Source of the DNA: a virus
Reading direction: 5' to 3' (one strand)
Virus record (IMG/VR): IMGVR_UViG_3300025009_000054
Span: 1-64,000 of that record
Length of the DNA: 64,000 nucleotides
Within the stretch, counting starts at the first letter, position 1; each line of letters opens with the position of its first letter. The position numbers and the translations under genes were made by a program. This document shows positions 40,197 to 58,582 of the stretch, in pieces. The notes beneath the pieces are model-generated. The model saw nothing but the letters and a program-made list of their open reading frames with translations. It did no database searches and was not told the DNA's origin.

Positions 40197-40242
40197 AAGG
40201 ATACAGCTTTTTTATCAAAAAGGACTCTTGAGGTCTTAAGGT

Positions 40243-40707: not shown

Positions 40708-40717
40708 ATCCGCGTCA

Positions 40718-41014: not shown

Positions 41015-41088
41015 TGGACCCCTCCTAAAATTATTCTGGGTGATATATAAGACCGAGAACACCTAAAATGCCAATTCTTTAGAGGTCA

Positions 41089-41514
41089 TCAATGTATAAT
41101 GTGGTATCTACACATAAGAGTTGCATCGTCTACACCTGGTACGGTTGGTATAGAGGCTTCGCTACTCCAAAACTCGGTTTCTGCTTTATATGCTTCACTA
41201 CGCGTATGAAATCTATATGACCTTAATATTTTCACTATGATAGGCAATACAATTCTGCTATTATCAATAAGTGTTATCTCCATTATCGATGTACCAAGTT
41301 TATTATTACTATCGATAGGGTATATTGGAGTAGTTATTTCTAACATGTTTCTAGGATCCACATACCCTAAATAGCTAGAATACGCTTGATGATCCCATTT
41401 TGTGGGCAATGGTTCTTCCATCCCGTTAGGGAATAATACTTCCATCAACATTCTACTCCAGTCTATAATATTTACCATCTTTACATCTGAAGTATCATCG
41501 TCATTATATAGCAT
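41089..41514 (-). CDS. hypothetical protein
   Basis: First gene after promoter 41579. Confidence 0.65.
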   Translation of the reverse strand: MLYNDDDTSDVKMVNIIDWSRMLMEVLFPNGMEEPLPTKWDHQAYSSYLGYVDPRNMLEITTPIYPIDSNNKLGTSIMEITLIDNSRIVLPIIVKILRSYRFHTRSEAYKAETEFWSSEASIPTVPGVDDATLMCRYHIIH

Positions 41515-41578
41515 GATGGACTCCTTACAGTCACTTTAATGTTATTATCAACAAAGTGAACACGTTTTCGTTCCTATC

Positions 41579-41611
41579 AGTGTAGACGTACGGGGAGCAC
41601 TAGACGTCGTT
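41579..41611 (-). promoter_or_regulatory. ECF-type promoter motif copy (degenerate -35)
   Basis: AGTGTAGACG-N17-GTCGTT. Confidence 0.6.
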
Positions 41612-41637
41612 AATTCTATTTCCGCTATCCAAATAAT

Positions 41638-41674
41638 GATAATGGCTAAGTCCGATGTAGACTTAGCCATTATC
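41638..41674 (-). terminator. hairpin ending the cargo/sigma gene run
   Basis: GATAATGGCTAAGTC...GACTTAGCCATTATC 15-bp stem. Confidence 0.65.
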
Positions 41675-41699
41675 AGTGAACAAACCACGAGAAATAAGA

Positions 41700-41966
41700 T
41701 CAAGTCGCGGTTCCTATCTTTTGTTTCTTCGATTCTCGTATTGCCTTTTGTACAAACTCAATCGCTATATAGATAACTCCCCAATATATAGCAATCTTCT
41801 CGTTAGTATTGATTGCGCTATGCAACCAAGTAATCCAATTATCAGAGCAATAAGTCAGCAACGCTGACCCAGCAATAGTGGCAAACCTTCTGAGTATTGC
41901 CCCAGCCGCGATCGCCCACGGCTTCCAGTTTTCCTCACTTTTGAGTAGCTGTACCAACCAGTTCAT
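41700..41966 (-). CDS. small membrane protein, holin-like
   Basis: Two hydrophobic helices and a basic C-terminus. Confidence 0.5.
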   Translation of the reverse strand: MNWLVQLLKSEENWKPWAIAAGAILRRFATIAGSALLTYCSDNWITWLHSAINTNEKIAIYWGVIYIAIEFVQKAIRESKKQKIGTAT

Positions 41967-41981
41967 GGTTGATCACCTCCC

Positions 41982-44444
41982 TTACACCTTCGTTATCTCC
42001 ATAATAGGGAAATTGACAGCATACTCGCCATTTTTCTTCTTCATTTCATCGATACGCTTAGCCCAAGGCGAACTACGTGGTGCTACTCTATCAACTAGGA
42101 CGAGTGCAGTCTCTGTATCTGGGTTAATATTATCGACTATACCACGCAACTGGTATGTAGAACCAGTCTGCGGATCACGTCTATTAATAGCGACTTCATC
42201 ACCAATTTTGAATGGTATACTAGTCTCAGGTTTCGCATTAGGGTCGTACAGATACTGCAACGGTGCCATCTGGTTATTAACGATGTTATTACCCTTACCA
42301 ACAGCATCCTTAACGCGCTCAACTTTCCTCTTATACTCAGTAGAACCTGGCTCTAGTCCATCAGTCATTCCAAGTGCGTCCGCTACCATCTCTCTATTCC
42401 ATGGGTGTGTTGTGCTACTTGGAAAAGTATGATACATAAGCCACGCATCGCGATGATGTTCTGGCATGTTACTAATTGCATCAGATATTGGAGCTATCGT
42501 ATCTTCCCACTCCATCTGTTCCTGCATCTTGTGTGGTGATCTAATAGCATTTGGTCCATTTGCTTCAAATGAATCATTGCCATCATCACCTGGATCACCT
42601 TCGCTACTGTTTCCATGAGGCGCATCAAGTGATATCTGGTTATCTTCGCGTAACTTCTGTTTACGCAGGTAATCCTTTTTCTGATTATGGGCTATCATAA
42701 ATAGCCATGTCTTAAAACTAGAATTGCCCTTGAACGTATCAATCTTTGCGTATGCGTTAACAAACGTTGACTGAGCAACATCATGTGCCATTTCTTGATT
42801 GCAACCTTCACTCACCATTAGGCCGACCACATTATTATAATTCTTAGATATTAGCTCATCCCACGCACCCTGATTACCTTGGCGTGCTGCATCTACCAGT
42901 GCAAGTTCCTTAGGGTCAACGTTGCGGTAGGTCGGGCGTAGACCCTTCTTACCTTTCTTTGCCGTAAGCACGTACACTTCTTGTGCTATCGCATCAACAT
43001 CACCCTTACTAAGTTTAACACCACTAGACCTGATTTCATCGATGAATATACGGAATGCATCGTTAAAATCCTTAACTTCATTCTCATCATACTCTTCGTA
43101 TATTCGATCCTCCTCTGCTAGGAAGTCCTGTGCGAATTCTTCTACTTGGTCGATTGACAGAGTACGATTTACCAGGCTCTTATTTTTAGTACCCTGATCT
43201 TTAGGACGGGGTATACTTCTATCGAATGTATCGCGTTTCCTTATATCCCCATCATGCTGTCTCTGGAATAATTGCTGCAATATGGGATCTTCTTGTATAT
43301 CATCATCGTCTGATTCAACGCTCTCTGGTAGAAGTCTATCATCTTCACCAGTATATGAATCAGTTTGTATATCCGGAGTCTTGCTAGCATCAATATCATC
43401 GACTACAGGAGCTGTCTTACGACGCTTTACACGACGTCTAACGTCAGCTCTGCTCTCGTCACTATCTGTTTCTTTTGTTTTTGGTGTAGATGTTACGCCC
43501 TTTGGCTTCATATCCCAAGTCATAAGTCCAGCATATGACTCCAACTGGTCCATAGCATCCGAGTCACCAATAACATTCTCAAACCGACTTTTATCAGCAT
43601 TATATGATCGACGTGACAGATGAAATCCCATATCTTCTAGGAGCCCTATATTTTCACGTGTAGTCTGTACCCATCCAACATACTTATCGGCCTTGACTCT
43701 TTCGCCATCTTCTTGCGATACTATTGGCCGACCATAGTGGTCTATAGCTACCACTGACTTAGGTTTTTCATTAGGCGCTATATATCCACATTGTACTGTC
43801 GTGACGAATACACCGTAAAATTGGCCACCAGGTATACCAACTTTAGATTTTTGTTCATATTGGTGCATGATCTCTCCTTCATACACCGGTATCTGATCAC
43901 CATACTCATCGAGTTTAGGTTCACCTTTTTTATATTTAATATACTCTCTTCCGTCTTCATCGGTATCCATAACATTTTCATTATATCGCTCATACTTGGG
44001 CTGTTCGGATTCCTGCATTGTGGATGGTGCACTTCCCATCATCCTTGGTGCAGTAGCGGATGGGTCTAATGTGTGTCCAAGTCCTTGATAATACTTGCAC
44101 CTTACACCAGGAATTACTCCAGTTGTCTCATCCCACCGCTCTTCGTCCCATACTAGCACCGATGTTGGTGCCGCCGATATATCAGGTGCCCCACGACATA
44201 TCTTTACGAAATGTCTGTCACGAAGTAACGGGCATTTCACCATCCCAGGATATTGTATTATACGGTCGACGTATGGCTCAATATGATAGCCAGCATCATC
44301 AGCAATACGCTTGAGTTCCGCTACAGTAACTCCAAGAGTTTTAGCCATCTGTACATCATCTGATCTAAGTAGAGTTTTTGATGCACGTTTGGTAAGATAT
44401 GTTCCCATTTCTGGATATCTATGAAGCAATTCACACAATTCCAT
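41982..44444 (-). CDS. 820-aa multidomain protein containing an ECF sigma factor and a C-terminal KOW/SH3-like domain
   Basis: Sigma2: ELALVDAARQGNQGAWDELI...AHDVAQSTFVNAY...FKGNSSFKTWLFMIAHN...DYLRK. Sigma4: ISDAISNMPEHHRDAW...REMVADALGM. Confidence 0.85.
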   Translation of the reverse strand: MELCELLHRYPEMGTYLTKRASKTLLRSDDVQMAKTLGVTVAELKRIADDAGYHIEPYVDRIIQYPGMVKCPLLRDRHFVKICRGAPDISAAPTSVLVWDEERWDETTGVIPGVRCKYYQGLGHTLDPSATAPRMMGSAPSTMQESEQPKYERYNENVMDTDEDGREYIKYKKGEPKLDEYGDQIPVYEGEIMHQYEQKSKVGIPGGQFYGVFVTTVQCGYIAPNEKPKSVVAIDHYGRPIVSQEDGERVKADKYVGWVQTTRENIGLLEDMGFHLSRRSYNADKSRFENVIGDSDAMDQLESYAGLMTWDMKPKGVTSTPKTKETDSDESRADVRRRVKRRKTAPVVDDIDASKTPDIQTDSYTGEDDRLLPESVESDDDDIQEDPILQQLFQRQHDGDIRKRDTFDRSIPRPKDQGTKNKSLVNRTLSIDQVEEFAQDFLAEEDRIYEEYDENEVKDFNDAFRIFIDEIRSSGVKLSKGDVDAIAQEVYVLTAKKGKKGLRPTYRNVDPKELALVDAARQGNQGAWDELISKNYNNVVGLMVSEGCNQEMAHDVAQSTFVNAYAKIDTFKGNSSFKTWLFMIAHNQKKDYLRKQKLREDNQISLDAPHGNSSEGDPGDDGNDSFEANGPNAIRSPHKMQEQMEWEDTIAPISDAISNMPEHHRDAWLMYHTFPSSTTHPWNREMVADALGMTDGLEPGSTEYKRKVERVKDAVGKGNNIVNNQMAPLQYLYDPNAKPETSIPFKIGDEVAINRRDPQTGSTYQLRGIVDNINPDTETALVLVDRVAPRSSPWAKRIDEMKKKNGEYAVNFPIMEITKV

Positions 44445-44481
44445 AGTTGATTTCCCCTTAGCTATAGATCGCGGTCTAATT

Positions 44482-45006
44482 TTATTCGGATTCGTAGCCT
44501 TCTGGTTCTGCTGAAAATACTAGGTTGACGATTAATTCGCCACTGTCTCCGATCCTTGGTACAGTAACAGATGAGAATGTCCAGTTATCACCATAGATAC
44601 CCACGGACCCGCTGATGCTATCGTAAACTTCTGACCATTTGATATAGTCGTTGGCGTTAAGCTCTTCTATTACTACGTCTTGCACTTCCTTCGCATTTGA
44701 AGGATCGTTAATTCCAGGTATCCCACTAAAGGCTAGCGATATATCACCTGTGATATACATCTTTGAGGGCTGATGTTGGGATAGACCAGATTGCGCTTCA
44801 CCATAACATTCGAGTACTGTCATGATATTGGGCAACTGTTCAGTATCTAGTTCAAATTCTTCTGCATTACCCTCCTGAGCACTATGTAAACTCGCATGTG
44901 ATACCATGCTAGTTAGCCATTCCATGTCTTGCCTCCAAAGGCTCAACGAACACGGGGCCGACGGTTCCACACTTCCATTATACCACGAAAAGCCCATTCT
45001 TGTCAA
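44482..45006 (-). CDS. acidic hypothetical protein
   Basis: ORF track; real start probably MEWLTS. Confidence 0.65.
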   Translation of the reverse strand: MTRMGFSWYNGSVEPSAPCSLSLWRQDMEWLTSMVSHASLHSAQEGNAEEFELDTEQLPNIMTVLECYGEAQSGLSQHQPSKMYITGDISLAFSGIPGINDPSNAKEVQDVVIEELNANDYIKWSEVYDSISGSVGIYGDNWTFSSVTVPRIGDSGELIVNLVFSAEPEGYESE

Positions 45007-45062
45007 TAGACGAATGGGTACTAAACAATCAGCCCCACGATCGATCGAGTCCTATTTGTTTA

Positions 45063-47963
45063 CTATACTTGACGTCTCGCAACTCGCTGCTCATATTCCA
45101 CTTCAGCCTCAGCCTGACTACGAGCAGCTATGTAGTCGTTCTCGTCAAATTGACCATCCTGTATATCGTATTTGCTGTAATTGAAGTCATCAATTAGGAT
45201 TTCCTCAGTACGGTCTACAATCTCCTGCGATGCAGTTCTCATAGCCGATGCAGAAAATGGCATTGGATCCTGACTAGGAATACCACTAGTTCCACCTACT
45301 GATGGTCCGCTAGTTTCCCATGGAAGATTTCCGGCACCAGGCTGCCTACCCATCTGCGTGTCGAAGTCATTAGTTTTCTGTTCTTTACTTTTAAGATCCT
45401 CAACACGTCTTTTCTTTTTATCTTCTACGATACTGAGAATCCTCGCGGCTTCATTTGTTGCGTGAGAAGCAAGCCTACTACTTACACCATTGGCAATATC
45501 ATAAGCCCTTACCCACCTATCATATGAGCTGCCACCCATTCTACGTGCCATTGACTCTAGCATAGCAATATATCGCTTGCCATCTTCACCAGCATTCTTA
45601 ATCGTAGTTATGGTAGAAGCTAGATCCTGTACTATATGATCATCACTTGAGCCACGATAATCTGCACCAAGATCATTATATGCTTTCATATAGGCACCCT
45701 CAAGATCGCCTATATATCTCAATTGTGCGGCTCTATCCTCAGCTAATGCCATCTGAGTATTTGCCGGTAATCCCCATCTAGAATCGTGATCACCCATGGG
45801 TTTACCAAGAGTAGTAATAGATTTTTGATGATCTCGACCAAATGGATCACTATCCTCAAGCCCAGCTTCATCTTTATTACTATTCATTTCGTTCATGATT
45901 TGATCGGCAGTTGGACCAGCTTCGTGTGGTCCAACTCCAACATCTTTAAGTGTCATCTTTAAAGCATCTTTAAGGCTATTAGATCTATTTCTATTTGCAA
46001 GCAGTTTATCCGTAAAACGAGTCTTACCACTAGACGACCCATCTACATTAATGGATGAACTTGTACTATGATTTACCGCATCACCAGTTGGTGTACTAAG
46101 TACATCCGACAATTCACCATCAGTCTGTGCGGTTCTCATTCCAGTATCGCCACTAACCTCATGCCAGCCATCACTGTCATATCTATTTTTTACTCTCTGA
46201 CACTCAGCGTCACCATAGCAATCAGTAAGCAATTTGCCAGTCTCGGCATCTATGAAATCAAACCACGCCTCTTCTCCATCATGACTATGATCACTCTTGA
46301 TCATATATCCATTACTTACGTCACCATCCATGTCGCGAGTGGCGTGGCCTTCCAATTGATCTTCATGCCTCTGATCAGCATGAATGTCATCGTATTTATT
46401 ATCGTCTTGTGCTGTACGTCTGCCAGGTGACGGGTCATCATTATCGTCACTATCATATATACCAGCGCACATATTCTGTGCAGCCTCTCTAGACAATCTC
46501 TTTTTATGCCCAGTCTTACCAACGCCACAGCTCATAAGGTGAGCAACATGCCCATCAAATCCGCCTTCAAATGAGCCATCTTCGTTCATATGTCTGCAAT
46601 AGTGCTTCTTCGCTTCTACCTTTACCAGTCTAGCGAATTTATCCATATTGCGGGCACCACTGAAAAATCCACTCTGTGGTATAGATATATGCCCATCCCC
46701 ACGGAATTCTTCATCACTACGTATACCTAACTGCGTATCGGTATCAAAGTCGCGATGCATAGCCGGACTATCGTACTGACTGCGTTCTCTATCCTCATGA
46801 TATCCACACGATACGCATTCCATCTTAGCCCAGTGTGGTCCACCACCAGGAATCTCTTCCATATCATTTCCACACTCTGGACAACTACCCATTTCAGAAG
46901 TATCAGCATGGTACTGACTAGTCTTAATTTTCTTAGATTTACCATCTACACCAGCAGTATCAATCTCTACTATATTGAAATCTTTTATGCTATCTTCATA
47001 TTTCTTATCAGTAGGATTACCAAGATGCTGATTATGAGGTTCGGACAGCTCTACTGGCATGGTAAACGGAAGTGCTTCTCTTCCTTTAGGTGCTGAGACA
47101 TCGAACCCAAGATTTGCAATCTCATCAATAACTTCTTCAACATCATCACTGGACATTGATGAATTCATCTTCATCATACCATTGAAAACAGTCTGTATGT
47201 CCTGTCTCGTTTTTTGAGCTACTCTGAGAACCTCTTCGGCCATTCTAGGTGCCGATAATGGTGCACCAGGGAATACTGGATTTCCCCAAGGTCCACCTTT
47301 AAACCCTGCAGCAGTCTTATTCATAGCTGTTAGCTGGTTATGTACTATACTTTCATCACCATTTGGTGAAATATCGGTGCGGTCTGACATCTTACGTGTA
47401 CCAGATTTAGCTATACCAAGATCAACAGCCATATCTTCAAGACTCGGCTTTTCAAGTTGATCTAGAGCGGATGCAACTACCTCATCAAACTGCTCCGGAT
47501 CCAAGTTTTCCTTGAAATAGGTCATAGCCTTATCACGGTGTGTCCTAAAGAACAGACCTATATCATCGATCAGCTCTGTTCTAGTAAGAGTGTCAGCATC
47601 TTTACCGGTATTAAACGTAGTTAGTGCTTTATTAGTGGTGTCTACCATGCTGTCATCATTAGGATCGTCTACTGCATATCGACCATTTGCATATGTCACT
47701 ACAACCGGCATCTTAGATTGGCCTGTCGGGTTAACATATACAACGTCAAACTGTAGTTTTGCTACCCTAACGTTGCCAACACCACACGCATTGATGTCTA
47801 CGTTGAGCATATCCATGCCAGTAAACGAAGCCTGAGCCCCATCCAGTTTCAGAGACTTACAGTATTCACTTACCTTCTTATATGCACATTCGACTAGTCG
47901 GTGACGCTCATCACTACCAATCGATCTATCACTATTCGTATTGAGCGCGGCTTGTATACGCAT
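45063..47963 (-). CDS. 966-aa acidic modular protein, putative virion internal/cargo polyprotein
   Basis: KTAA, RRTAQ, MRTAQ and MRTAS motifs; internal CPEC...CVSC Zn ribbon. Confidence 0.7.
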   Translation of the reverse strand: MRIQAALNTNSDRSIGSDERHRLVECAYKKVSEYCKSLKLDGAQASFTGMDMLNVDINACGVGNVRVAKLQFDVVYVNPTGQSKMPVVVTYANGRYAVDDPNDDSMVDTTNKALTTFNTGKDADTLTRTELIDDIGLFFRTHRDKAMTYFKENLDPEQFDEVVASALDQLEKPSLEDMAVDLGIAKSGTRKMSDRTDISPNGDESIVHNQLTAMNKTAAGFKGGPWGNPVFPGAPLSAPRMAEEVLRVAQKTRQDIQTVFNGMMKMNSSMSSDDVEEVIDEIANLGFDVSAPKGREALPFTMPVELSEPHNQHLGNPTDKKYEDSIKDFNIVEIDTAGVDGKSKKIKTSQYHADTSEMGSCPECGNDMEEIPGGGPHWAKMECVSCGYHEDRERSQYDSPAMHRDFDTDTQLGIRSDEEFRGDGHISIPQSGFFSGARNMDKFARLVKVEAKKHYCRHMNEDGSFEGGFDGHVAHLMSCGVGKTGHKKRLSREAAQNMCAGIYDSDDNDDPSPGRRTAQDDNKYDDIHADQRHEDQLEGHATRDMDGDVSNGYMIKSDHSHDGEEAWFDFIDAETGKLLTDCYGDAECQRVKNRYDSDGWHEVSGDTGMRTAQTDGELSDVLSTPTGDAVNHSTSSSINVDGSSSGKTRFTDKLLANRNRSNSLKDALKMTLKDVGVGPHEAGPTADQIMNEMNSNKDEAGLEDSDPFGRDHQKSITTLGKPMGDHDSRWGLPANTQMALAEDRAAQLRYIGDLEGAYMKAYNDLGADYRGSSDDHIVQDLASTITTIKNAGEDGKRYIAMLESMARRMGGSSYDRWVRAYDIANGVSSRLASHATNEAARILSIVEDKKKRRVEDLKSKEQKTNDFDTQMGRQPGAGNLPWETSGPSVGGTSGIPSQDPMPFSASAMRTASQEIVDRTEEILIDDFNYSKYDIQDGQFDENDYIAARSQAEAEVEYEQRVARRQV

Positions 47964-48030
47964 TTGTACTCAACCTCCATCCCAACGCGTGTTGGGTATC
48001 ATACTTACACTACCATTAGTATAGTAGAGC

Positions 48031-49140
48031 CTACGACCAGGAATCCACTATCGTAGCACCACCGGACATTGCATTAGCCATGTCCTGTTCCTCGGTATCA
48101 TATACTCTAACAGACGATGGCATCGATTTACGCCCATCATTATATGCAGCCTTGATTGCCATAGAATCTCCATCTTCTACATATGGAAGCCTATCGTAAT
48201 ACTCAGGCGTCTCATCTAGATGAGCAAGAGCTATTTTAGCCGTCTCGATATCATCGTCGTCTGTGATGTTATTTTTACCAGCCTTAGTCCCATGCTCCAG
48301 CTCCACGTTTAGCCCATCGCAGAAGTCTTCTACCGTGAACGGGTTTGTATCCCAATTTATGCCAAGCTTCTCACCGATCTTCTTGGCTTCATCAATAGAG
48401 AATTTAGAGCGATGTTCCTTTTGTGCCGATACAGTCTTACATCTTGGGCATTTCTTACCTGTAAACTTCATACCACACTGTTTACATCTTACTTCTTGCA
48501 CTTCTTCTTCATATGGACCATGAATGCCCTTGTCGTACCGTTCTCCGTTAACCCTAACTTCTCCACCAGGCCATATTGAGACAGCCTTTTCACCATAAGC
48601 ATTCATGAGATATCCGGTAACATCGTTGATCCTTTGATCTTCAGCATGCTCCGCTGCTTCTTCACGCTGCTTCTTCATCTTCATCATGTACCCAAGCCAG
48701 CGTTTATGCTTCTCCTGCTTCTCCTGGTCTGATAGTCCAGCTACTGCGGCCATGCCACTCCGCTCGTGTATGTCCTCTACAATCTCGTCCATTTCAGACT
48801 GTGGGATTTTAGAACGTACACCATGTGGTATGTCATGCTCATGTTTAACCGAAATAACATCGTCACGGTCAACATTCTCGTCAAATAGGTCAATAGCAGT
48901 ATGTATGGGATGCTCAACGTAGTTTGGCATGGATTCACCAGTTGGGTAAACGAACGTGTAGCCACTCCTACCCTTCTTAGTGACCACTACATTATCGTCA
49001 CCCATGACATATATACGAGTATCTCTATCTGGAAGATCGTACCTCTCGCGTACTACAATACCAGGTTCATTATCTGGTCCAAGTTCTGTTGCCCTCATTT
49101 GAGCTATTCTACCTGGACCAGTAAATCGAATACTATCCAT
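48031..49140 (-). CDS. modular protein with DUF5661-like domain
   Basis: GLNVELEHG...TDDD..TAKIALAHLDETPEYYDRL; CKQC..CPRC. Confidence 0.7.
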   Translation of the reverse strand: MDSIRFTGPGRIAQMRATELGPDNEPGIVVRERYDLPDRDTRIYVMGDDNVVVTKKGRSGYTFVYPTGESMPNYVEHPIHTAIDLFDENVDRDDVISVKHEHDIPHGVRSKIPQSEMDEIVEDIHERSGMAAVAGLSDQEKQEKHKRWLGYMMKMKKQREEAAEHAEDQRINDVTGYLMNAYGEKAVSIWPGGEVRVNGERYDKGIHGPYEEEVQEVRCKQCGMKFTGKKCPRCKTVSAQKEHRSKFSIDEAKKIGEKLGINWDTNPFTVEDFCDGLNVELEHGTKAGKNNITDDDDIETAKIALAHLDETPEYYDRLPYVEDGDSMAIKAAYNDGRKSMPSSVRVYDTEEQDMANAMSGGATIVDSWS

Positions 49141-49158
49141 TACTAACTCCAGTCAGCT

Positions 49159-50286
49159 CTATACGCTAGCCCATTCCTCATTAGACGAATAATACGCCTT
49201 AGCTCCATTGCATTCCCAATATGGAACATATCCTCCGCGATCTGCACCCTCTGGGTGGGCGTCAACATATCCAGTTCCAGGGCAGTCAATGGGCTTTTCA
49301 TCTATGCCCAGTATTTGAACCTTACCTTTATTTACATCTGGGAACGCAGACTTCTGATTCAGCTCTTCAGCTAACTCTTCATTAGTCATAGAATCACCGC
49401 CAGAACCTGACATATCGTACTGTGCAGTTCTTGGTTCAGAGTTATCAGAGTAGCCACCCTGCTGTAGGGCATTATCGAATTCTTTTCTATCCCAGGTATG
49501 CTGTTCATTATCTTCTGTGGGCCCACCTACACCATGAATAGCTAGCACTATCGCATTATAGGCATCGCCATCTTGAGATCCAGGCTCAACATCACTGATA
49601 AGACCATTAGGACCGGAGACTTCTATGCTGCCCCACTCTGAATCTGACTCATATGAGACTCCATTGATTAGCCACTCTTGGTGGAAGTTACCATCATTTT
49701 CATCAGTCGATACGAGCCGAATATTGATGGTACCACCCTGCTCTTGTGCGGTTCTTGGTTTACCACTGTTAAGTTCATCCTGATCTGCGGGAGCGGTAGT
49801 CATATCTTGATACTTCACTACATATTTTGGTTTTCCGGTAGTGGGATCAATTGTAGAGCTGTCGATAGTACCGGATTTACCATTATAATTCACCTGCTGG
49901 CCATTACTATAGGTCTGCTGTGCCGTTTTCGACATAGCAACCTTGGCCCCACCAAACGATAGTGGCTTTAGACCTTTCGCTTGCAAGTAGCCACGTACCA
50001 TGTCATCATCGTCATCTTGCGCTCTAACAAGCATTTCGCCATCAACCATCCATATAGCTCCAGTTGACGGATGCTGATATACGCCCTTACCGTGATCTAC
50101 TAGCTGCGCGGTTACAGACCTACTAAACGGCACACTATCCCTGCCCTCTAGAACTACAGAAGTAGGGTCAATTTTATTACTAGCCGTCCTCATGCTGGCT
50201 GTCCGGTTCTCAGCGATAGCATCGGATTCTAAGTCTGTAAGAAAACTTGGCAGTTCATCGTACTGCCGCGCTATTTTTCTAAACAT
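49159..50286 (-). CDS. modular putative virion cargo polyprotein
   Basis: RTASMRTAS, KTAQ and two PRTAQ; last module paralogous to 23317..23649. Confidence 0.75.
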   Translation of the reverse strand: MFRKIARQYDELPSFLTDLESDAIAENRTASMRTASNKIDPTSVVLEGRDSVPFSRSVTAQLVDHGKGVYQHPSTGAIWMVDGEMLVRAQDDDDDMVRGYLQAKGLKPLSFGGAKVAMSKTAQQTYSNGQQVNYNGKSGTIDSSTIDPTTGKPKYVVKYQDMTTAPADQDELNSGKPRTAQEQGGTINIRLVSTDENDGNFHQEWLINGVSYESDSEWGSIEVSGPNGLISDVEPGSQDGDAYNAIVLAIHGVGGPTEDNEQHTWDRKEFDNALQQGGYSDNSEPRTAQYDMSGSGGDSMTNEELAEELNQKSAFPDVNKGKVQILGIDEKPIDCPGTGYVDAHPEGADRGGYVPYWECNGAKAYYSSNEEWASV

Positions 50287-50352
50287 GTGACACCTCCAAA
50301 GTGTTTGCTAATCAATATAGTAGGGTATGAGATATTTACGGTGATGTTCAAA

Positions 50353-50385
50353 AGTGTAGACGCACAACGAGAGCTAGGTGGTGCC
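50353..50385 (-). promoter_or_regulatory. ECF-type promoter motif copy heading the run that includes the ECF sigma gene
   Basis: AGTGTAGACG-N17-GGTGCC. Confidence 0.8.
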
Positions 50386-50393
50386 AATAATAA

Positions 50394-52127
50394 CTACCTG
50401 TAACGACTTCTATTCATGGGCGCACCGCCACCTCCACCAGATAATCCTCTACCCATCGCAGGGGTTCTCGCCCTCTGTCCTCCACCGCCACGGATAACAC
50501 GCTTAATATGCATGAGTTTATCTGCTATATAGCATACCATGGCATCAGCACATGGGTGATCGTCGTGTTCACCATTTGGCGCACAAATCTTCTTATTAGG
50601 AGAGTTTAGCATGGTGTGTTTTTCTAGGTTTTCCCATTGTCTAACCGAATTCTGAAATGGCTTATGGCCACTACCACCATCATACCCATCAATAGCTGAC
50701 CTATCTGGATATTTAAATAGCCCACGGTCAACTTCCATAAGTATGTGGTCAAATATGGCATTTTTCCAGTTTTTGCCAGATTCTGGGTCTGTCCTACTGT
50801 ACATAATACCATATACGCCAATACCCTTCAAACTCTGCCTAGCAAAATCGAGTACAGGCTGTCCGCATCCGGTCATATCAATGATTAACGCTTTACATGG
50901 GAATCTTCCATCTTTTGATATCAGCGACCTAACCCACTCAAGCTGTACGGTGTAGTCAGTGCCGTACCTCTCATCGCTATGCACTTTAGTCTTTAGATCT
51001 TCCACTTTCCTAACAATACTGAGTGCAGACCAGTCATTTTTACCAGTACCATCAGAATCGGTTGATGAACCTCCAGCAGGATCCCATGATGCATAGTATT
51101 CGCCACCATCCCATGATGTGCTACCATGTATTATCGGACCACCACCAAGCATGCCCTCTACCTGCTCTTCACTAAAGAAGAGGTCTGCATCTACAAGCCA
51201 TTCAAGCATATACTGTGTTCGGAAGTCATCTGGTATCATATCTCCAGGTAGATCGTGTATCCTCATTGTACGTCCATCGACTATAACAATCGGGTTATGA
51301 GGATATGTCTCCTGCTTGATAGCTATCGGCATTCGATCAAGTACATATCTAGATGTCTGTGTTCCATCTACATCGATAGTACCAGATCTATTGAGGATCC
51401 CGCACATTTCCCATGGGAATATACACTTCGTATATGTCGGGTCTTTGAACGAGTGATGAAAGTGGTTACGTAGTCTTGGTGTGCCGGACTTTATAATTCT
51501 TGCTCCCCAAGCACCTCCCATTGGGAGGATTACTTCGGAGACGACCTTATCGCTTACTTTCTGCGACTCGTCAATCATTATCAATCCAGCACTAAAACCT
51601 TCGATATTTGCCATTTCACTAGCTGACGCCTGTGAAATCTGAATACCTGGTTCACGTGACCATTTAGTACCCTTATCCTTAAAGACGATTGTACCCTTGG
51701 TAGACGATTTCCAATCAACTATATCATCAAAGTATGGCCTATACCTAGCACGTTCATGTATACGGTTAAGTACTAATGCAGCTTGACCTTCTCTAGGACC
51801 AAATATGAGTATATTACCGTGTTCCTTCTTCGTGTACCTATCGCCAAGAATAAGGGATCCCTGCGCCAGAGAGTCGGTCTTTCCTGTCTGTCTTGTCATA
51901 AGTAGACAGACCTTAGCCAGAGCTCTATTTGCAATGGCGTTTACTGCGGCAATCTGGTTCTCATAGACAACGATGCCCATGTTCTTCTCAACATAGTACC
52001 TATTATCTAATTCAGCCGCAAAGATATTGCCGATATCAGTAGCTGTTATTCCATTATACGCTGGTTGCTGCGACAATTTCTTCACCTTTAGTCTTATAGA
52101 TATACTTCTCGGCGAGTTCATGTCCAA
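50394..52127 (-). CDS. terL: terminase large subunit
   Basis: Walker A MTRQTGKT, Walker B IMIDESQ, SGTP coupling motif, nuclease residues ASWDPAG...IDMTGCG...HDDHPCAD. Confidence 0.9.
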   Translation of the reverse strand: MDMNSPRSISIRLKVKKLSQQPAYNGITATDIGNIFAAELDNRYYVEKNMGIVVYENQIAAVNAIANRALAKVCLLMTRQTGKTDSLAQGSLILGDRYTKKEHGNILIFGPREGQAALVLNRIHERARYRPYFDDIVDWKSSTKGTIVFKDKGTKWSREPGIQISQASASEMANIEGFSAGLIMIDESQKVSDKVVSEVILPMGGAWGARIIKSGTPRLRNHFHHSFKDPTYTKCIFPWEMCGILNRSGTIDVDGTQTSRYVLDRMPIAIKQETYPHNPIVIVDGRTMRIHDLPGDMIPDDFRTQYMLEWLVDADLFFSEEQVEGMLGGGPIIHGSTSWDGGEYYASWDPAGGSSTDSDGTGKNDWSALSIVRKVEDLKTKVHSDERYGTDYTVQLEWVRSLISKDGRFPCKALIIDMTGCGQPVLDFARQSLKGIGVYGIMYSRTDPESGKNWKNAIFDHILMEVDRGLFKYPDRSAIDGYDGGSGHKPFQNSVRQWENLEKHTMLNSPNKKICAPNGEHDDHPCADAMVCYIADKLMHIKRVIRGGGGQRARTPAMGRGLSGGGGGAPMNRSRYR

Positions 52128-52434
52128 TAATACGTTCTGGCTTTACTCCAAGCTTTGCGGCACGTTCAATACCCTGCCCGACGCCTTCTTCCATTTCACC
52201 ATCTGAGAGTGGTCCTTCAGCTAGTGCCTCTGATACGACGTGTGCTTCCTTATTGGCACGATCATCATTACAATAAAATCCTGGTCCAATAAATCTTGTA
52301 GCTACACGACGTGATAGCTGTTTTTCTGTTTTAGTACCACAGGCACATTCCGGTCCATTATTCATTTCAGAAACAGATCTAAATACTTCCTGAGTATCTC
52401 CGCATTTTGTACACTTATATTCATAGAGTGGCAT
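52054..52434 (-). CDS. FmdB-family zinc-ribbon protein
   Basis: MPLYEYKCTKCG...CACG...FIGPGFYCND. Confidence 0.85.
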   Translation of the reverse strand: MPLYEYKCTKCGDTQEVFRSVSEMNNGPECACGTKTEKQLSRRVATRFIGPGFYCNDDRANKEAHVVSEALAEGPLSDGEMEEGVGQGIERAAKLGVKPERIIGHELAEKYIYKTKGEEIVAATSV

Positions 52435-54041
52435 TATCCACACCTCCTAAGGTTTCTTGCTTTTACTATAAATCTACGTGCGGCACCACGCCATTCCCTA
52501 GATGGATCATCATGGAAGTTGCGTGTAGTCTGATGGTTTATATCTTTATCCCACTGTCCGGTGTATTTACCATCAGATAGATCTAATAATTCTTCATTAA
52601 CATTAAATAGATCTGTGTTGGCGAAATTATCTCCATTTGGTGTGTACTCGATGATGGATCCGCCGTTATGGTGGACATGCACACCATAGCTTACTGCAGC
52701 GGCAAGTTGCCCATCATCTTTTGCATTTGTAATCATGTAGTACAGCGTGCTTATTCCAATGGCCGCATCATCGCTAACTGAGTTACCATCTTTACTCCTA
52801 CCTGGTAGCATCGCCGCTGAGTTCATTAAATTTGATATTATCATCATTCCAATAGAGTTGTTTAACAGCGATATCTCCGTAAACAACTCTGACATATACC
52901 ATATATCATCGATGTCACTTTTATATTCCTCAGGTATACGATTTATCGCCCTGTACACGACATCAGGATATTCTTTCTTCAATTGGTCGACGAATCCATG
53001 TACGACGCTCAATTTCCCATTTTGTCTAAGGGCAAATGATATCGATGATATATGGCCTACTGCCCATTCCATACATGCGTTTTCAAATTCATACGCCATA
53101 CGGCTAGTTACGTCCTTGAATTCCGACTGCAACTTATCATAGTCAGCCATAGCATTACCGCCGAACGACAACTTATATTCAAGCTCGTACCACCTTTTGA
53201 TGAGGTCTACATCTATTGAGATGCCATCGGCTTGTGCTGTTCTCATACTAATAGATTCACCTTGACTATCAACCAATATATCCCTAATCGTAGTACCTGT
53301 AGTAATCACAACTCCTGGATTAATATAATATGTCTTACTATTATCACTGTTACTAAACTTCCATATTGACTCAGCCTCATCACTACCGAAATATAATGCA
53401 CTCTCCCCTAATGATGCCTCCAATGCTATTGCTAGATCATCACCACGACCTGGATTATCACTAAAGTCTGGTCTGCCAGGGCATATATATCCAGCCATTA
53501 TATCGTACAGTGTTATAGCGCTATCCCTTGGCTCATCTAGAAAATCATATCCAATATTATGAAACCACTCCTGTATATCATCAAGGTTCGATCTTATCCA
53601 TTGATTAAACGGATCACTCTGTGCTGTTCTCATAGCTGTGGTATTAAACTGGCCAGGCACAGGTATTACTGGCTCTACTACAGGTTGATAATTTGGATTG
53701 TCACCACCGATGGATTCTTCCCACGTTTTCGGCTTATTCTTACCAAAGTATACTGCCGCAGCTAGCGCATGGCTACAGAACCTGTTGCGCAAGTGGAATC
53801 TCTGCATAATCTTGCACCACTGGCCCCACAAACAGTCACAGCTCCACCAGTTTACAGCCTCTGGGTTTGATCTACCACCAGGATATGCGAGTACTATATT
53901 GTATGTACCATGATGGCCATCAACTGTACCCTCAAATCGCTCTGGTGTCATCACACTTGGATGAACAGCACCACTATGGTATAGCTTAAATGCCTTACGC
54001 TTTACATCAGACCACGCGGCCTTACGTTCCATCTCATTCAT
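52434..54041 (-). CDS. SWIM zinc-finger modular protein, putative virion cargo
   Basis: WSCDCLWG...CSHALA; two MRTAQ; N-terminal ERKAA. Confidence 0.75.
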   Translation of the reverse strand: MNEMERKAAWSDVKRKAFKLYHSGAVHPSVMTPERFEGTVDGHHGTYNIVLAYPGGRSNPEAVNWWSCDCLWGQWCKIMQRFHLRNRFCSHALAAAVYFGKNKPKTWEESIGGDNPNYQPVVEPVIPVPGQFNTTAMRTAQSDPFNQWIRSNLDDIQEWFHNIGYDFLDEPRDSAITLYDIMAGYICPGRPDFSDNPGRGDDLAIALEASLGESALYFGSDEAESIWKFSNSDNSKTYYINPGVVITTGTTIRDILVDSQGESISMRTAQADGISIDVDLIKRWYELEYKLSFGGNAMADYDKLQSEFKDVTSRMAYEFENACMEWAVGHISSISFALRQNGKLSVVHGFVDQLKKEYPDVVYRAINRIPEEYKSDIDDIWYMSELFTEISLLNNSIGMMIISNLMNSAAMLPGRSKDGNSVSDDAAIGISTLYYMITNAKDDGQLAAAVSYGVHVHHNGGSIIEYTPNGDNFANTDLFNVNEELLDLSDGKYTGQWDKDINHQTTRNFHDDPSREWRGAARRFIVKARNLRRCG

Positions 54042-54060: not shown

Positions 54061-55044
54061 CTATCCTTTATTTCTAGTTTGCAACGTATTACGTTCTGGT
54101 ATCTTATAGTAATCGATACCCATATCATCATTATATGCAGACTCAAGTTGTGGCCTATCGATAACATATATCTGGCTATTATCGAACACTATATATGATT
54201 TCCCACCCTCATATTCGTTATCATAGATAATTCCATCATAACCCTTAGACTTAAGGACGCTCACAAAATCTTGTGGAGTTTTTATCGTACCATCAGTAAA
54301 CTCCTCAGATACTCGACTATCACTACCGAACGCATTTTTGAGATTCTGTACCTCGTCCCAATATAAGGGATCACGATTAGTGTACATAGGGTTATTTATA
54401 CGCAAATACGCACGAAATACGTATGGGTCGGTATCACTCTCGTATCTATCATATGACGACTCTACGGCACCAGTCATATTATCGAAAGTACCCTTATCTC
54501 CAAAGTGGAAACCAATATCACCGTGTTCAAAGGTAGTAAAATCCTTATCAGTTATGTGATACACCACCATCGGCTTTCCATTACCATCAACTACCTTTGA
54601 TCCATTAAACCACGCCTCTACATCTGTATCTGTAGTTTGTGATGCTCTCTGTCCTGGAAATCTATTGGTTACAGGTGATCCCACGGTGCTCGGCATGTAA
54701 CCACGTGTAGCATCATTGATTTCCATCCCGCCCATTACAGGACTAACATTAAATAACATTAATAGGTCTGGATTGTCCTTCGATTCTTCTACGATATTTC
54801 CAATAGCTGTTACTCGATCAGGATATGTGTCCGCATTATACAAATCTATAAATAGCGGCTTATACTTGTCTGCGGCCATAGCTGACTGCTCACTACTGTA
54901 GATGATATCGGCGTATCCTATGAGCTGATTATAGAGATCATCAACTAGTTTTGGGTCGAACCATCCTTGTGAATCATTTCTATATAATTCACCAAGCTCA
55001 ATGACGTTAATTTGTTGTGCCGAAGACTTCATTTGTTCCTCCAT
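54061..55044 (-). CDS. protein with ART-PolyVal-like ADP-ribosyltransferase-fold domain
   Basis: WFNGSKVVDGNGKPMVVYH...GFHFG...AYLRINNP...GYDGIIYDNEYEG..SYIVFD. Confidence 0.7.
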   Translation of the reverse strand: MEEQMKSSAQQINVIELGELYRNDSQGWFDPKLVDDLYNQLIGYADIIYSSEQSAMAADKYKPLFIDLYNADTYPDRVTAIGNIVEESKDNPDLLMLFNVSPVMGGMEINDATRGYMPSTVGSPVTNRFPGQRASQTTDTDVEAWFNGSKVVDGNGKPMVVYHITDKDFTTFEHGDIGFHFGDKGTFDNMTGAVESSYDRYESDTDPYVFRAYLRINNPMYTNRDPLYWDEVQNLKNAFGSDSRVSEEFTDGTIKTPQDFVSVLKSKGYDGIIYDNEYEGGKSYIVFDNSQIYVIDRPQLESAYNDDMGIDYYKIPERNTLQTRNKG

Positions 55045-56441
55045 TGCTGAATCCTACTCTCTATATACGCCTTAATCTTCTCGTATGTTGCACGATACAC
55101 TTGATGACCCTTCATATAGGTATTGTAGAATGGGTCACTCTCGTCTTCTTTAGGGCGCACTAGACCCATCTTTTCCATATCCTCAATCTCACCTTCCCAA
55201 GCGATATCGGCAGCGAGTTGTGCGTACTTATATGGGTCTTTAAGCACTCTCTTCGTTGCAGGTGAGTTATCGGTTAGCGCATTTCCAATGAGGTCAAATA
55301 CGTGCCTATCTTCTAGTCTTACAGCAACATCCCCAGGCGTACAATACGCAAAATCTCTACCTTGGGCTGTCATGATATATATCTGGCGTTCGGCATCCCA
55401 TGTTGCTGTATATGGATTCTCGAAATCACCTGGCTCGTACCAATCGTCGTTATCATCACCACCGTATCCACGATCTATATCTATCGGAGTACGCGGTGGT
55501 GCAGTCGTTATCCTTGATTGTGCCTCTCTCCATCCAAATATTTTTGACACATGAGAAAGCATTTCATTGGACATGCCATGCTTCCTTCTCTCTTCCTTCA
55601 ATGTAGATAGTACATGTATATACCCATATCTTTCAAGGATTTTGTATACAATATTGGCTGGTAGCCAATTTCTAGACATCTTAAATATCTCATCATCTGA
55701 TGCGTCCATTGGCATGTTGAAAGCGGATATTCTTTCTTGATGAATCTGTTCATATTGCTTAACCATGCGACGTATATCAGCATCAACCTCGGCCATAGCA
55801 CCAATAAGCCTAAACGTAAACCACTTATCGAGCTGACCATCAGCCTCTGATGCATATTCCCTAAGTAGTCTTAGATCGGTTAAGTCTCTACTAAGTTTGC
55901 CACCTTCAATATCAAACATTCGTGCGTAGTGGATGGCTTTCATCCATATAAAGTCCATTATGCCACGTGGGCTCCATGATATATCAAGATGCGGAGGCAT
56001 CTTTAGCCATACATTACCGTCAATACTGTATATGGCATCGGATTCAAGCTTATTATCAGTCCTCATATAATAATTAATGGGGTGATGTGTTCCTGGTATT
56101 ACTTCACCGTTAATGCCACGAATAATATGAAGTAATGTGGTCCACGCATCCTTCTCATCAGCATCAACCCCATTAGCCATTTCAAACTTATCCCTATCAA
56201 TAATTACAGTGACATCAATATCGCTGTCATTTGTCCACTGTTCAGTTGCTGAGCTACCGATAAGATATAGTAATGTCCACTGATTCGGGTCATTGAAGTA
56301 TCCGGATAAAGCATCGAATATGCGTAGAGTCACCATGCCCTTTATATCATCACGTAGTACTGGCACATCATCAGATGTGTTCCATATATCCGGCGACAGC
56401 TTATTGTGTGGAAGGTCGATAATCGACGCTTTTCTATCCAT
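55029..56441 (-). CDS. pol-beta-superfamily nucleotidyltransferase domain protein
   Basis: LIGSSATEQWTNDSDIDV...HPINYY. Confidence 0.78.
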   Translation of the reverse strand: MDRKASIIDLPHNKLSPDIWNTSDDVPVLRDDIKGMVTLRIFDALSGYFNDPNQWTLLYLIGSSATEQWTNDSDIDVTVIIDRDKFEMANGVDADEKDAWTTLLHIIRGINGEVIPGTHHPINYYMRTDNKLESDAIYSIDGNVWLKMPPHLDISWSPRGIMDFIWMKAIHYARMFDIEGGKLSRDLTDLRLLREYASEADGQLDKWFTFRLIGAMAEVDADIRRMVKQYEQIHQERISAFNMPMDASDDEIFKMSRNWLPANIVYKILERYGYIHVLSTLKEERRKHGMSNEMLSHVSKIFGWREAQSRITTAPPRTPIDIDRGYGGDDNDDWYEPGDFENPYTATWDAERQIYIMTAQGRDFAYCTPGDVAVRLEDRHVFDLIGNALTDNSPATKRVLKDPYKYAQLAADIAWEGEIEDMEKMGLVRPKEDESDPFYNTYMKGHQVYRATYEKIKAYIESRIQQWRNK

Positions 56442-57814: not shown

Positions 57815-58582
57815 TTATAGAACCATGTCGCCAAATACTAATCTCAGATCTTTTTTAATAGTACTAATGCGGTTGACAACACGTGTCTCACTAATACCAA
57901 ACATTGCGCTTATGGTCTTGTAGTTTTGTTCGGGGAGGAAGAAGTAAGCGTGGAATATATCGTAATCAAATTTTGTATAATTATTGAGTATGTGATCTAG
58001 CATTGTATCGACAAGTGACTTCGCATCTAACCTAGCGATTATAGCATCGGTATTGTCATCCACACATGGGCTTAAAGCATCTAAAACTGACGGATCCCCT
58101 ACCAGAACATTTCTATTCTGGTCGCGCATTAGTCGTTCTATTTTATCGAGAGCCCTAATGGACAACATCCTCTTTACAAATACATTATAATATGCAGGAC
58201 CACCAATAGTATAGTCATGTAATGTAAGCTTAGTAAATTCACTACGCGACCACACATATAACTCTTCCCACGATATTAAATTTGCATGACCTATGTAGTA
58301 TTTCTTAGTAACGCTAACAATAAGGGCTTCAAATTGTCTGAGTAGCCACTCCATAGACTCATTATCGCCATCCTGTGACAATGCTACGCGTCTATTTATT
58401 TCCGCTATTAGTGCTTTTTTACCACCGGTGCCGCCCTGTACATGACTAGGCGGCACCACTTCAATGCTATGCTCAGGCGATCTACACATATCGCATAGAC
58501 CCACATCATTATCTGAATCGATTAGATATCTAATTCCACATTCGGCACATGTGCCAAATATACCATCAGGTCCCATCACCAT
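57815..58582 (-). CDS. sigma-70-family RNA polymerase sigma factor with N-terminal Zn ribbon
   Basis: SQDGDNESMEWLLRQFEALIVS (region 2) and QNYKTISAMFGISETRVVNRISTIKKDLR (region 4). Confidence 0.75.
   Translation of the reverse strand: MVMGPDGIFGTCAECGIRYLIDSDNDVGLCDMCRSPEHSIEVVPPSHVQGGTGGKKALIAEINRRVALSQDGDNESMEWLLRQFEALIVSVTKKYYIGHANLISWEELYVWSRSEFTKLTLHDYTIGGPAYYNVFVKRMLSIRALDKIERLMRDQNRNVLVGDPSVLDALSPCVDDNTDAIIARLDAKSLVDTMLDHILNNYTKFDYDIFHAYFFLPEQNYKTISAMFGISETRVVNRISTIKKDLRLVFGDMVL

What the first reader, a model, noticed from the sequence alone, without database searches (positions are those of the whole stretch)
49159..49434. The module after the last PRTAQ is a captured copy of the free-standing gene 23317..23649
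Seen: the cargo tail MTNEELAEELNQ...KGKV...GTGYVDAHPEGADRGGYVPYWECNGAKAYYSSNEEWASV aligns with ITSEDLAKEMNE...RGKV...GEGYLEDHPEGADRGGYVPYWERGDATAYYSSNEEWVAI, including 15 identical consecutive residues, about 26 kb away. The module starts after RTAQ plus a GSGG linker with its own Met, preceded by an SD-like GGCGGTGA. Inference: this is direct evidence that RTAQ-delimited units are autonomous proteins, and that an effector was duplicated into a pre-made injectable form. Good candidate anti-defence or host-takeover factor.
Basis: partly seen in the sequence, partly recalled or inferred. Interest (0 to 1): 0.85.

Follow-up and report, generated by a model that had tools for sequence, protein, structure and literature searches.

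The report
Small phage protein fused onto cleavable carrier
In an uncultured groundwater phage, a small protein of unknown function exists as a separate gene and as the tail of a 375-residue protein next to the terminase, which probably loads it into the capsid; this is a familiar phage strategy using a new cutting motif and a new protein family.

Summary
Residues 300-375 of the 375-aa ORF 49159..50286(-) match the free-standing gene 23317..23649(-) at 46% identity (E 3e-22).

Both belong to an unnamed, virus-restricted family of about 80-aa proteins. It has 96 cluster representatives, and 76 of the 91 with a full domain are free-standing. It has no Pfam, PHROG, PDB or fold match, and a signature HPEGxDRGG loop.

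The fused copy keeps the ancestral start Met (profile position 1) and a strong Shine-Dalgarno site, so it is a whole gene fused onto a carrier. The duplication is old: 59% nucleotide identity with saturated synonymous sites. The identical 15-residue run is the family signature, not recent copying.

RTA[Q/S] occurs 11 times against 0.87 expected. All copies lie in three terminase-flanking proteins and in the head-protease/scaffold protein, where a 50%-identical relative conserves them. It is therefore probably the maturation-protease site.

Best reading: a capsid-loaded, protease-released copy of the small protein, possibly also made from the internal start.

[quoted passage not shown] is overstated. 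The other units are orphans and may be propeptide fragments. Function is unknown. The scan has noted similar cargo systems in other phages. Interest is moderate.

The parts
49159..50286 (-). 375-aa gene (P0001), the first gene after the terminase large subunit. It has its own GGAGGTG SD and an ECF-type promoter upstream.
   Evidence: The identical 375-aa product is called on 8 contigs, with 5 places from 5 different samples shown.
49162..49389 (-). C-terminal module M300-V375 (76 aa, 8.35 kDa), a complete member of the small HPEGxDRGG family.
   Evidence: The family HMM envelope covers residues 300-375, profile positions 1-83, E 2e-28. AF2 pLDDT is 93.6 alone and 97-98 within the full-length model.
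49393..49401 (-). SD-like GGCGGTGAT, 8 of 9 matches to GGAGGTGAT, with the core 7 nt before ATG 49389. It lies inside the codons of the Gly/Ser linker.
49390..49419 (-). 10-residue linker (Y290-S299) between the last PRTAQ and M300.
   Evidence: The low-pLDDT segment 273-289 ends just before it.
49420..49434 (-). Last PRTAQ (residues 285-289), a candidate maturation-protease site. Cutting after Q289 would release an 86-aa, 9.3-kDa fragment.
49744..49758 (-). Second PRTAQ (residues 177-181).
49918..49932 (-). SKTAQ (residues 119-123), a weaker variant of the motif.
50104..50118 (-). SVTAQ (residues 57-61), a weaker variant of the motif.
50179..50208 (-). Tandem NRTAS-MRTAS (residues 27-36) closing a short N-terminal peptide. 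The same NRTAS closes the N-terminal peptide of the protease protein.
23317..23649 (-). Free-standing paralogue (110 aa), with a 4-Cys N-terminal extension followed by the family domain. It sits in a run of small co-directional genes.
50353..50385 (-). ECF-type promoter copy (GGCACC-N17-CGTCTACACT on the - strand) heading the run that starts with the 375-aa gene.
24697..24729 (-). Copy of the same promoter class (2 mismatches), about 1 kb upstream of the free-standing paralogue in the same small-gene run.
50394..52127 (-). Terminase large subunit.
   Evidence: phrog_2, E 5e-21
52434..54041 (-). 535-aa protein with two MRTAQ sites (residues 137-141 and 266-270).
45063..47963 (-). 966-aa protein with RRTAQ, MRTAQ and MRTAS sites.

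Best explanation
The 375-aa gene is a fusion. A once free-standing gene of a small, jumbo-phage-restricted family (about 80 aa, signature HPEGxDRGG) was joined in frame to the end of an acidic carrier protein. That gene is a paralogue of 23317..23649.

The carrier holds an N-terminal peptide ending in NRTAS/MRTAS and further x-(R/K/V)-T-A-Q sites. These are most likely cut by the phage's own head-maturation protease, whose own polypeptide carries the same motif.

The likely sequence of events is as follows:
1. The precursor is taken into the prohead.
2. The carrier is cut, at or within the RTAQ sites, into small pieces.
3. The folded 9.3-kDa C-terminal fragment (Y290-V375) stays in the head and enters the cell with the DNA.
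4. The free-standing paralogue is made only by expression inside the infected cell.

Shown here: the homology, the family and its usual free-standing state, retention of the start codon and SD, and the enrichment, distribution and conservation of the motif.

Inferred: cleavage, packaging, injection and what the domain does.
For: - Paralogy: 46% identity, E 3e-22, and these are the only two copies in the 142.7-kb record.
- Family: a profile search of 1.84 billion representatives gave 96 hits at E<1e-3. Of 91 with a full domain, 76 are free-standing, 12 have an N-terminal extension and 3 a C-terminal one.
- M300 aligns with the initiator Met of most free-standing members and with profile position 1.
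- The internal SD is stronger than 87% of real starts and is matched by only 0.35% of internal ATGs.
- The two window copies group together in the family tree (with P0010; SH-aLRT 85).
- Both copies are under purifying selection: 59% nt identity, and 24 of 39 conserved residues use different codons.
- The module folds as an independent unit (pLDDT 94-98), while residues 1-289 are modelled poorly. Every candidate site lies in a low-pLDDT segment or at its edge.
- Motif: RTA[QS] occurs 11 times against 0.87 expected in 181 ORFs (Poisson P 2.6e-9). All copies are in P0001 (4), the 535-aa protein (2), the 966-aa protein (3) and the 1162-aa protein that carries the head-maturation protease domain (2).
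- In the protease protein the motif lies at residue 25, just before the protease domain, and again in the C-terminal tail. A 50%-identical relative keeps SNRTAS, RTAS and R-x-A-Q-S while the flanks differ.
- Context: the gene is adjacent to TerL, and its neighbours include an ART-PolyVal domain protein and an NTase-like protein (weak Pfam hits, only NTP_transf_2 just above its cut-off) with near-N-terminal basic-x-A-S/Q motifs.
- Precedent: T4 Alt and the internal proteins, and SPN3US/phiKZ ejection proteins, are loaded into proheads and cut by the prohead protease at a shared short motif. Their long N-terminal propeptides are cut several times (PMC10052503; PMC5512222).
Against: - There is no proteomic or biochemical evidence of cleavage, packaging or ejection. 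The phage is uncultured.
- The major capsid protein has no RTA[QS]. Only a loose SRAQ lies near its N-terminus.
- The similarity of the N-terminal peptide to that of the protease is weak (E 0.059).
- The protease domain rests on one PHROG hit (E 3.5e-13) with no Pfam hit. Its specificity is unknown.
- The position of the scissile bond (after Q/S, or between A and Q/S as in herpesvirus assemblin sites) cannot be told.
- Twelve homologues carry the domain behind other N-terminal sequences, and the 8 of these read show no such motif. Fusion therefore does not by itself imply release.
- The gene and the free paralogue lie behind the same promoter class, so a difference in timing is not evident.
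- The low pLDDT of residues 1-289 may only reflect the lack of homologues.
Confidence: 0.5

Rival explanations
1. This is an in-frame nested gene. The SD plus ATG at M300 is a working internal start, so the locus yields both the 375-aa protein and a free 76-aa (8.35-kDa) protein identical to its C-terminus. Lambda C/Nu3 and Mu I/Z do the same in head modules (from established knowledge). This can coexist with proteolytic release.
For: GGCGGTGAT lies at the optimal distance. Its duplex energy of -12.3 kcal/mol is stronger than 87% of real starts, and only 4 of 1155 internal ATGs match it. M300 coincides with the family's normal N-terminus. The phage's own strong SD is GGAGGTG.
Against: The SD-like string is made of Gly/Ser/Asp linker codons (GGT TCT GGC GGT GAT), which give G-rich DNA by themselves. 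It may equally be a fossil of the former ribosome-binding site with no present use. There are no expression data, and no separate promoter was found upstream of it.
Confidence: 0.3
2. This is an ordinary multi-domain protein that is never cut. The family domain works in cis as a C-terminal domain. RTA[Q/S] would then be a linker, docking or modification motif (for example for binding to portal or scaffold) rather than a cleavage site.
For: Twelve of 91 family representatives have the domain at the C-terminus of longer proteins of 116-296 aa, and the 8 of them read show no such motif. No cleavage has been shown.
Against: The motif lies just before the protease domain and repeatedly in the tail of the protease/scaffold protein, the usual places of auto-processing. 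It is conserved there against diverged flanks. It falls in or next to low-confidence linker segments. The 13-fold excess is confined to head-associated proteins.
Confidence: 0.2
3. This is an artefact or a very recent accident. Two adjacent genes would have been merged by an assembly error or by recent loss of a stop codon, without functional meaning.
For: The SD and Met are retained right after a plausible end of the upstream protein.
Against: The identical 375-aa ORF is present on 8 contigs, with 5 places from 5 different samples shown (ENA, JGI, Logan), and is always called as one gene. Synonymous divergence from the paralogue is saturated while the protein signature is intact, so the fused copy has been kept under selection for a long time.
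Confidence: 0.03

Closest known systems
T4 internal proteins IPI-III and Alt (capsid-targeting sequence, cut by prohead protease gp21)
   Same: Non-structural proteins are loaded into the prohead. They carry a short motif that the head protease also cuts in head proteins, and are delivered with the DNA. Alt is an ADP-ribosyltransferase, and here an ART-PolyVal protein lies two genes upstream, beyond the 535-aa protein and the terminase.
   Different: The motif here is (M/N/P/R)-R-T-A-(Q/S), not L/I-x-E. The carrier is about 290 residues with five or six candidate sites rather than a 10-20-residue leader. A shared leader is not demonstrated. Packaging is untested.
phiKZ / SPN3US ejection and inner-body proteins cut by gp175 / gp245 at (A/S/G)-x-E
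   Same: Many head proteins have long N-terminal propeptides that are cut several times, leaving a C-terminal mature part in the head. The protease cuts itself (PMC10052503).
   Different: The protease lineage differs: the nearest annotated relative is Bacillus phage G gp19 at 34%. The motif differs, and here the protease is fused to an approximately 900-residue scaffold-like tail.
Polyvalent proteins of phages and conjugative elements (Iyer et al. 2017, PMC5512222)
   Same: These are multi-module proteins encoded next to portal/terminase genes and predicted to be packaged. Their domains have solo versions in related genomes. An ART-PolyVal domain lies in a nearby gene.
   Different: P0001 has no domain from the described polyvalent repertoire and no embedded peptidase. 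Here the modules are spread over several medium-sized genes, and release would depend on the head protease.
In-frame nested head genes (lambda C/Nu3, Mu I/Z)
   Same: An internal SD plus in-frame start inside a head-module gene could give a short product identical to the C-terminus of the long one.
   Different: Here the short product would be a complete member of an independent gene family, not a scaffold. Use of the internal start is unproven.

Membership tests
Unnamed small-protein family (HPEGxDRGG signature, about 80 aa) | Significant full-length match to the family profile, including the invariant His, Arg and Trp | tested here: met
   P0001 300-375: E 2e-28, profile positions 1-83. P0002: E 3e-29. 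H, R and W are invariant.
Unnamed small-protein family (HPEGxDRGG signature, about 80 aa) | Free-standing gene of 70-120 aa | tested here: not met
   This holds for 23317..23649 (110 aa) but not for the module in P0001, which has a 299-residue N-terminal extension, the longest among 91 representatives.
Prohead-protease-processed capsid cargo (T4 IP/Alt, phiKZ/SPN3US type) | The phage encodes a head-maturation protease | tested here: met
   Residues 81-214 of the 1162-aa protein at G000 126854..130342 match phrog_18299, E 3.5e-13. The gene lies between portal and major head protein. It shares 34% identity with phage G gp19. There is no Pfam hit.
Prohead-protease-processed capsid cargo (T4 IP/Alt, phiKZ/SPN3US type) | The cargo shares a short motif with the processing sites of the protease or scaffold itself | tested here: met
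   RTA[QS] occurs 11 times against 0.87 expected, only in three TerL-flanking proteins and the protease protein. It is conserved in relative P0101. That these are processing sites is inferred.
Prohead-protease-processed capsid cargo (T4 IP/Alt, phiKZ/SPN3US type) | A shared N-terminal capsid-targeting peptide | tested here: inconclusive
   The N-termini of P0001 and the protease both end in NRTAS at residues 27-31 and 24-28, but the similarity is weak (E 0.059).
Prohead-protease-processed capsid cargo (T4 IP/Alt, phiKZ/SPN3US type) | Physical presence in the virion and cleavage at the motif | not testable with these tools
   The phage is uncultured, from groundwater metagenomes. This needs mass spectrometry or a co-expression assay.
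Polyvalent proteins (Iyer et al. 2017) | Two or more domains of the described effector repertoire in one polypeptide | tested here: not met
   P0001 has no Pfam or PHROG domain. ART-PolyVal is in a separate gene nearby, 54061..55044.
Polyvalent proteins (Iyer et al. 2017) | Encoded beside portal/terminase packaging genes | tested here: met
   It lies directly downstream of TerL.
In-frame nested gene (lambda C/Nu3 type) | An internal in-frame start with a ribosome-binding site | tested here: met
   GGCGGTGAT-N3-ATG, -12.3 kcal/mol, top 0.35% of internal ATGs.
In-frame nested gene (lambda C/Nu3 type) | A separate short product is made | not testable with these tools
   There are no expression or proteome data.

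The most novel reading that the evidence does not exclude
The phage keeps one effector in two delivery modes by design. One is a free gene. The other is a copy welded to a disposable, multiply cut carrier that loads it into the capsid, with the ancestral ribosome-binding site kept so that the same locus also makes the free form. The head protease would have a previously undescribed R-T-A-(Q/S) specificity that addresses a whole set of injected enzymes (ART, NTase, sigma factor). The HPEGxDRGG family would be a new, widespread jumbo-phage host-takeover or counter-defence protein with a new fold.
Probability: 0.15. Interest if true: 0.7.

Novelty: new member of a known kind. Interest (0 to 1): 0.45.

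Why it matters
If the reading holds, the pair gives a natural contrast for an unknown and strongly conserved jumbo-phage protein family. The same domain would be needed both at the instant of DNA entry (the packaged copy) and later (the expressed copy). This points to an early host-directed role and gives a clear candidate for screening.

The reading also defines a candidate cutting code, R-T-A-Q/S, for a head protease lineage related to phage G gp19. That code would allow the packaged proteome of related uncultured phages to be read from sequence. The principle itself, protease-processed capsid cargo and solo versus fused effector domains, is already established in T4, phiKZ/SPN3US and the polyvalent proteins.

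Tried and rejected
- Close relatives of the phage: blastn and tblastn against INPHARED phages found nothing for the region or for P0001. Scans of IMG/VR with TerL and with the major head protein found none. A near-length search of 5.8 billion proteins returned only P0001 itself. Conservation of the fusion therefore could not be tested.
- Other units of P0001: tblastn of segments 1-36, 37-61, 62-123, 124-181 and 182-289 against the genome, and a 'shorter proteins' search, gave no stand-alone homologues.
- Function of the domain: there was no Pfam, PHROG or PDB sequence hit.
- Fold searches gave nothing usable. Foldseek PDB best E was 0.48 and BFVD best E 0.12. VIA-align wide best Z was 3.1, and the ESM Atlas best TM was 0.49. 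This does not prove a new fold.
- Gene neighbourhoods of homologues are short contigs of small unannotated genes and gave no clue.
- Prokaryote genomes: one partial 20-residue match only.
- No sigma-70-type promoter lies in front of the module.
- No complex prediction was run, because no partner is known.
- No read-level check of the junction was made.

Full report
**Setting.** The window is the first 64 kb of a 142.7-kb IMG/VR virus record (CheckV completeness 82%, G+C 42%) with nearly all genes on the minus strand. The target is the C-terminus of a 375-aa ORF, 49159..50286(-), called P0001 here. It is the first gene after the terminase large subunit (50394..52127, phrog_2). It has its own GGAGGTG ribosome-binding site and an ECF-type promoter copy at 50353..50385. 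The same 375-aa product is called on eight contigs, with five places from five different samples shown, groundwater studies among them. The fused frame is therefore not an assembly accident.

**The observation.** BLASTP aligns P0001 residues 300-375 with residues 30-114 of the frame at 23317..23661(-): 46% identity, E 3e-22. No third copy exists in the record. The free gene starts at ATG 23649 behind GGAGGAG and encodes 110 aa. The last PRTAQ is residues 285-289. A 10-residue Gly/Ser-rich linker follows, then M300, which is preceded by GGCGGTGAT. The description is correct.

**What the module is.**
- A profile of the two copies, searched against 1.84 billion cluster representatives, found 96 proteins at E<1e-3.
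- Of the 91 with a full domain, 76 are free-standing proteins of about 70-120 aa. Twelve have an N-terminal extension over 30 aa and three a C-terminal one. P0001 has by far the longest extension.
- The family has a sharp signature, G-Y-V-D-x-H-P-E-G-x-D-R-G-G-Y-V-P, and a C-terminal E-W.
- It has no Pfam, PHROG or PDB sequence match.
- It is all but absent from one-genome-per-species prokaryote contigs.
- In IMG/VR it turns up in phage contigs of 307-436 kb, inside runs of small unannotated genes.
- AlphaFold2 models the module with pLDDT 93.6 as one helix plus seven strands. Foldseek (PDB, BFVD), VIA-align and the ESM Atlas gave no convincing match. This does not prove a new fold.
- Several members, including the free gene here, carry a small Cys-rich or zinc-ribbon-like N-terminal extension.

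**Evidence that the module is a fused whole gene.** M300 aligns with the initiator Met of most free-standing members and with profile position 1. The upstream GGCGGTGAT matches GGAGGTGAT at 8 of 9 positions, with its core 7 nt from the ATG. Its predicted pairing with the anti-SD (-12.3 kcal/mol) exceeds 87% of 146 real gene starts in this genome, and only 0.35% of 1155 internal in-frame ATGs match it. The simplest history is that a separate downstream gene, with its ribosome-binding site, was joined in frame to the preceding gene. On this view the "GSGG linker" is largely the translated former intergenic region.

**Relation between the two copies.** In a tree of 91 domains the two copies group together with one other sequence (SH-aLRT 85, quick tree). 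They are therefore most likely paralogues from a duplication within this lineage. The duplication is old: nucleotide identity is 59%, 24 of 39 conserved residues use different codons, and 9 of 15 codons differ in the identical block. The 15-residue run thus reflects the family signature under purifying selection in both copies. The direction of "capture" from this particular free gene cannot be established.

**The RTAQ motif.**
- Across 181 minus-strand ORFs (44,712 aa), RTA[QS] occurs 11 times against 0.87 expected (P 2.6e-9).
- All copies lie in four proteins: P0001 (4), the 535-aa protein upstream of TerL (2), the 966-aa protein two genes downstream of P0001 (3) and a 1162-aa protein outside the window at 126854..130342 (2).
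- The 1162-aa protein lies between the portal and the major head protein. It carries a head-maturation protease domain at residues 81-214 (phrog_18299, E 3.5e-13). Its nearest annotated relative is Bacillus phage G gp19.
- It has NRTAS at residues 24-28, just before the protease domain. RKAQ, RLAS, NRTAS, RSAS and RQAQ lie in the last 160 residues.
- Its only relative in 5.8 billion proteins (P0101, 50% identical overall) keeps SNRTAS, RTAS and R-x-A-Q-S while the flanking residues differ.
- These are the places where prohead proteases process themselves and scaffolds. The motif is therefore probably this protease's recognition site.
- Whether the bond cut is after Q/S, or between A and Q/S as in herpesvirus assemblin sites (established knowledge), cannot be said.
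- Looser basic-x-A-S/Q motifs lie within the first 22 residues of the neighbouring sigma-fusion, DUF5661, ART-PolyVal and NTase proteins.

**How P0001 probably works.** In the full-length AlphaFold2 model the module has pLDDT 97-98 and residues 1-289 are poorly modelled. Weak islands lie at about residues 59-80 and 126-160. Every candidate site lies in a low-confidence segment or at its edge: 27-36 and 57-61 (segment 1-58), 119-123 (105-125), 177-181 (161-195) and 285-289 (273-289). This is only weak evidence, because residues 1-289 have no homologues.

In SPN3US, phiKZ and T4 the prohead protease removes N-terminal propeptides, and long ones are cut several times. The pieces mostly leave the head, and the C-terminal part stays (PMC10052503).

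By that analogy, the most economical reading is this. Residues 1-289 are a disposable carrier that brings the precursor into the prohead. Residues 290-375 (9.3 kDa) are the mature cargo, delivered with the DNA. I give this whole chain about 0.5. Its parts I rate as fusion origin about 0.85, motif as protease site about 0.65, and packaging and delivery about 0.5.

**What is overstated.** The claim that the finding is direct evidence that all RTAQ-delimited units are autonomous proteins is overstated. None of the other segments has a paralogue or a short homologue.

**Rivals.**
- The internal SD and ATG may still work, giving a free 8.35-kDa product as in the nested lambda C/Nu3 and Mu I/Z genes. 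This is compatible with the main reading (0.3).
- The protein may never be cut, as could be the case for the twelve N-extended homologues; the 8 of them read lack the motif (0.2).
- An artefact is unlikely (0.03).

**Promoters.** Both copies lie behind the same ECF-type promoter class. The sequence therefore gives no sign that they differ in timing.

**Comparison and novelty.** The principle is known in three forms:
- T4 capsid-targeted internal proteins and Alt;
- phiKZ/SPN3US ejection proteins;
- the "polyvalent protein" theme, in which effector domains occur both solo and fused next to packaging genes (PMC5512222).

Three things are new here: the candidate motif, the protein family and the retained internal start. 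Earlier notes of this scan describe analogous tags and fused cargo in other phage genomes, including basic-x-A-S type motifs. The function of the domain is unknown, and "anti-defence" is a guess. I rate this a new member of a known kind, of moderate interest.

Noticed in passing
window 643..50385 (17 copies), e.g. 50353..50385 and 24697..24729: A private promoter-like class, GGCACC-N17-CGTCTACACT on the - strand, occurs 17 times at up to 2 mismatches against 0.01 expected. Its form resembles ECF-sigma promoters, and the phage encodes sigma-like proteins at 41982..44444 and 57815..58582.
   Followed up: partly
G000:C1:126854..130342 (outside the window; L006:2854-6342): A 1162-aa protein fuses a head-maturation protease domain (residues 81-214) to a long scaffold-like tail. 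The tail holds four repeats of about 45 residues (IPSA...GxKPGKSHSxxIP) and a Lys/Pro/Gly-rich stretch. The tail also carries the R-x-A-Q/S motifs.
   Followed up: partly
G000:C1:130572..133235 (outside the window; L006:6572-9235): The 887-aa portal protein seems to hold an intein. Residues of about 313-672 match LAGLIDADG_3 and PHROGs of intein-bearing enzymes, while residues 49-312 match portal families.
   Followed up: no
window 54061..55044 and 55029..56441: An ART-PolyVal ADP-ribosyltransferase domain protein and a nucleotidyltransferase-like protein (weak Pfam hits: NTP_transf_2 23.2 bits against a cut-off of 21, Polbeta below its cut-off) lie upstream of the terminase. Both have basic-x-A-S/Q motifs within their first 10 residues (KSSAQ, RKAS), reminiscent of packaged T4 Alt.
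   Followed up: partly
window 23563..23649 and 22895..23332; L008:6219-6575: The free-standing paralogue has a 4-Cys N-terminal extension and is followed by a gene with CxxC motifs. Family members P0007 and P0019 have N-terminal zinc-ribbon-like extensions, and the L008 homologue is followed by a multi-CxxC protein. This may be a recurrent association with zinc-ribbon modules.
   Followed up: partly
L009 / G001 (307-kb IMG/VR phage), e.g. G001:C1:119250-120491: A basic unit of about 40 residues (KFKAKKTKKYPTITFHKDNKSGNDKSAV) occurs six times in four ORFs. One of them is the 289-aa protein P0048, whose C-terminus is a member of the same small family.
   Followed up: partly
window 30452..32488: A 678-aa protein matches phrog_1735 (unknown function) end to end (E 3e-266). 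It is 53% identical to proteins of Caulobacter phiCbK-like phages and is present in 535 phage records.
   Followed up: no
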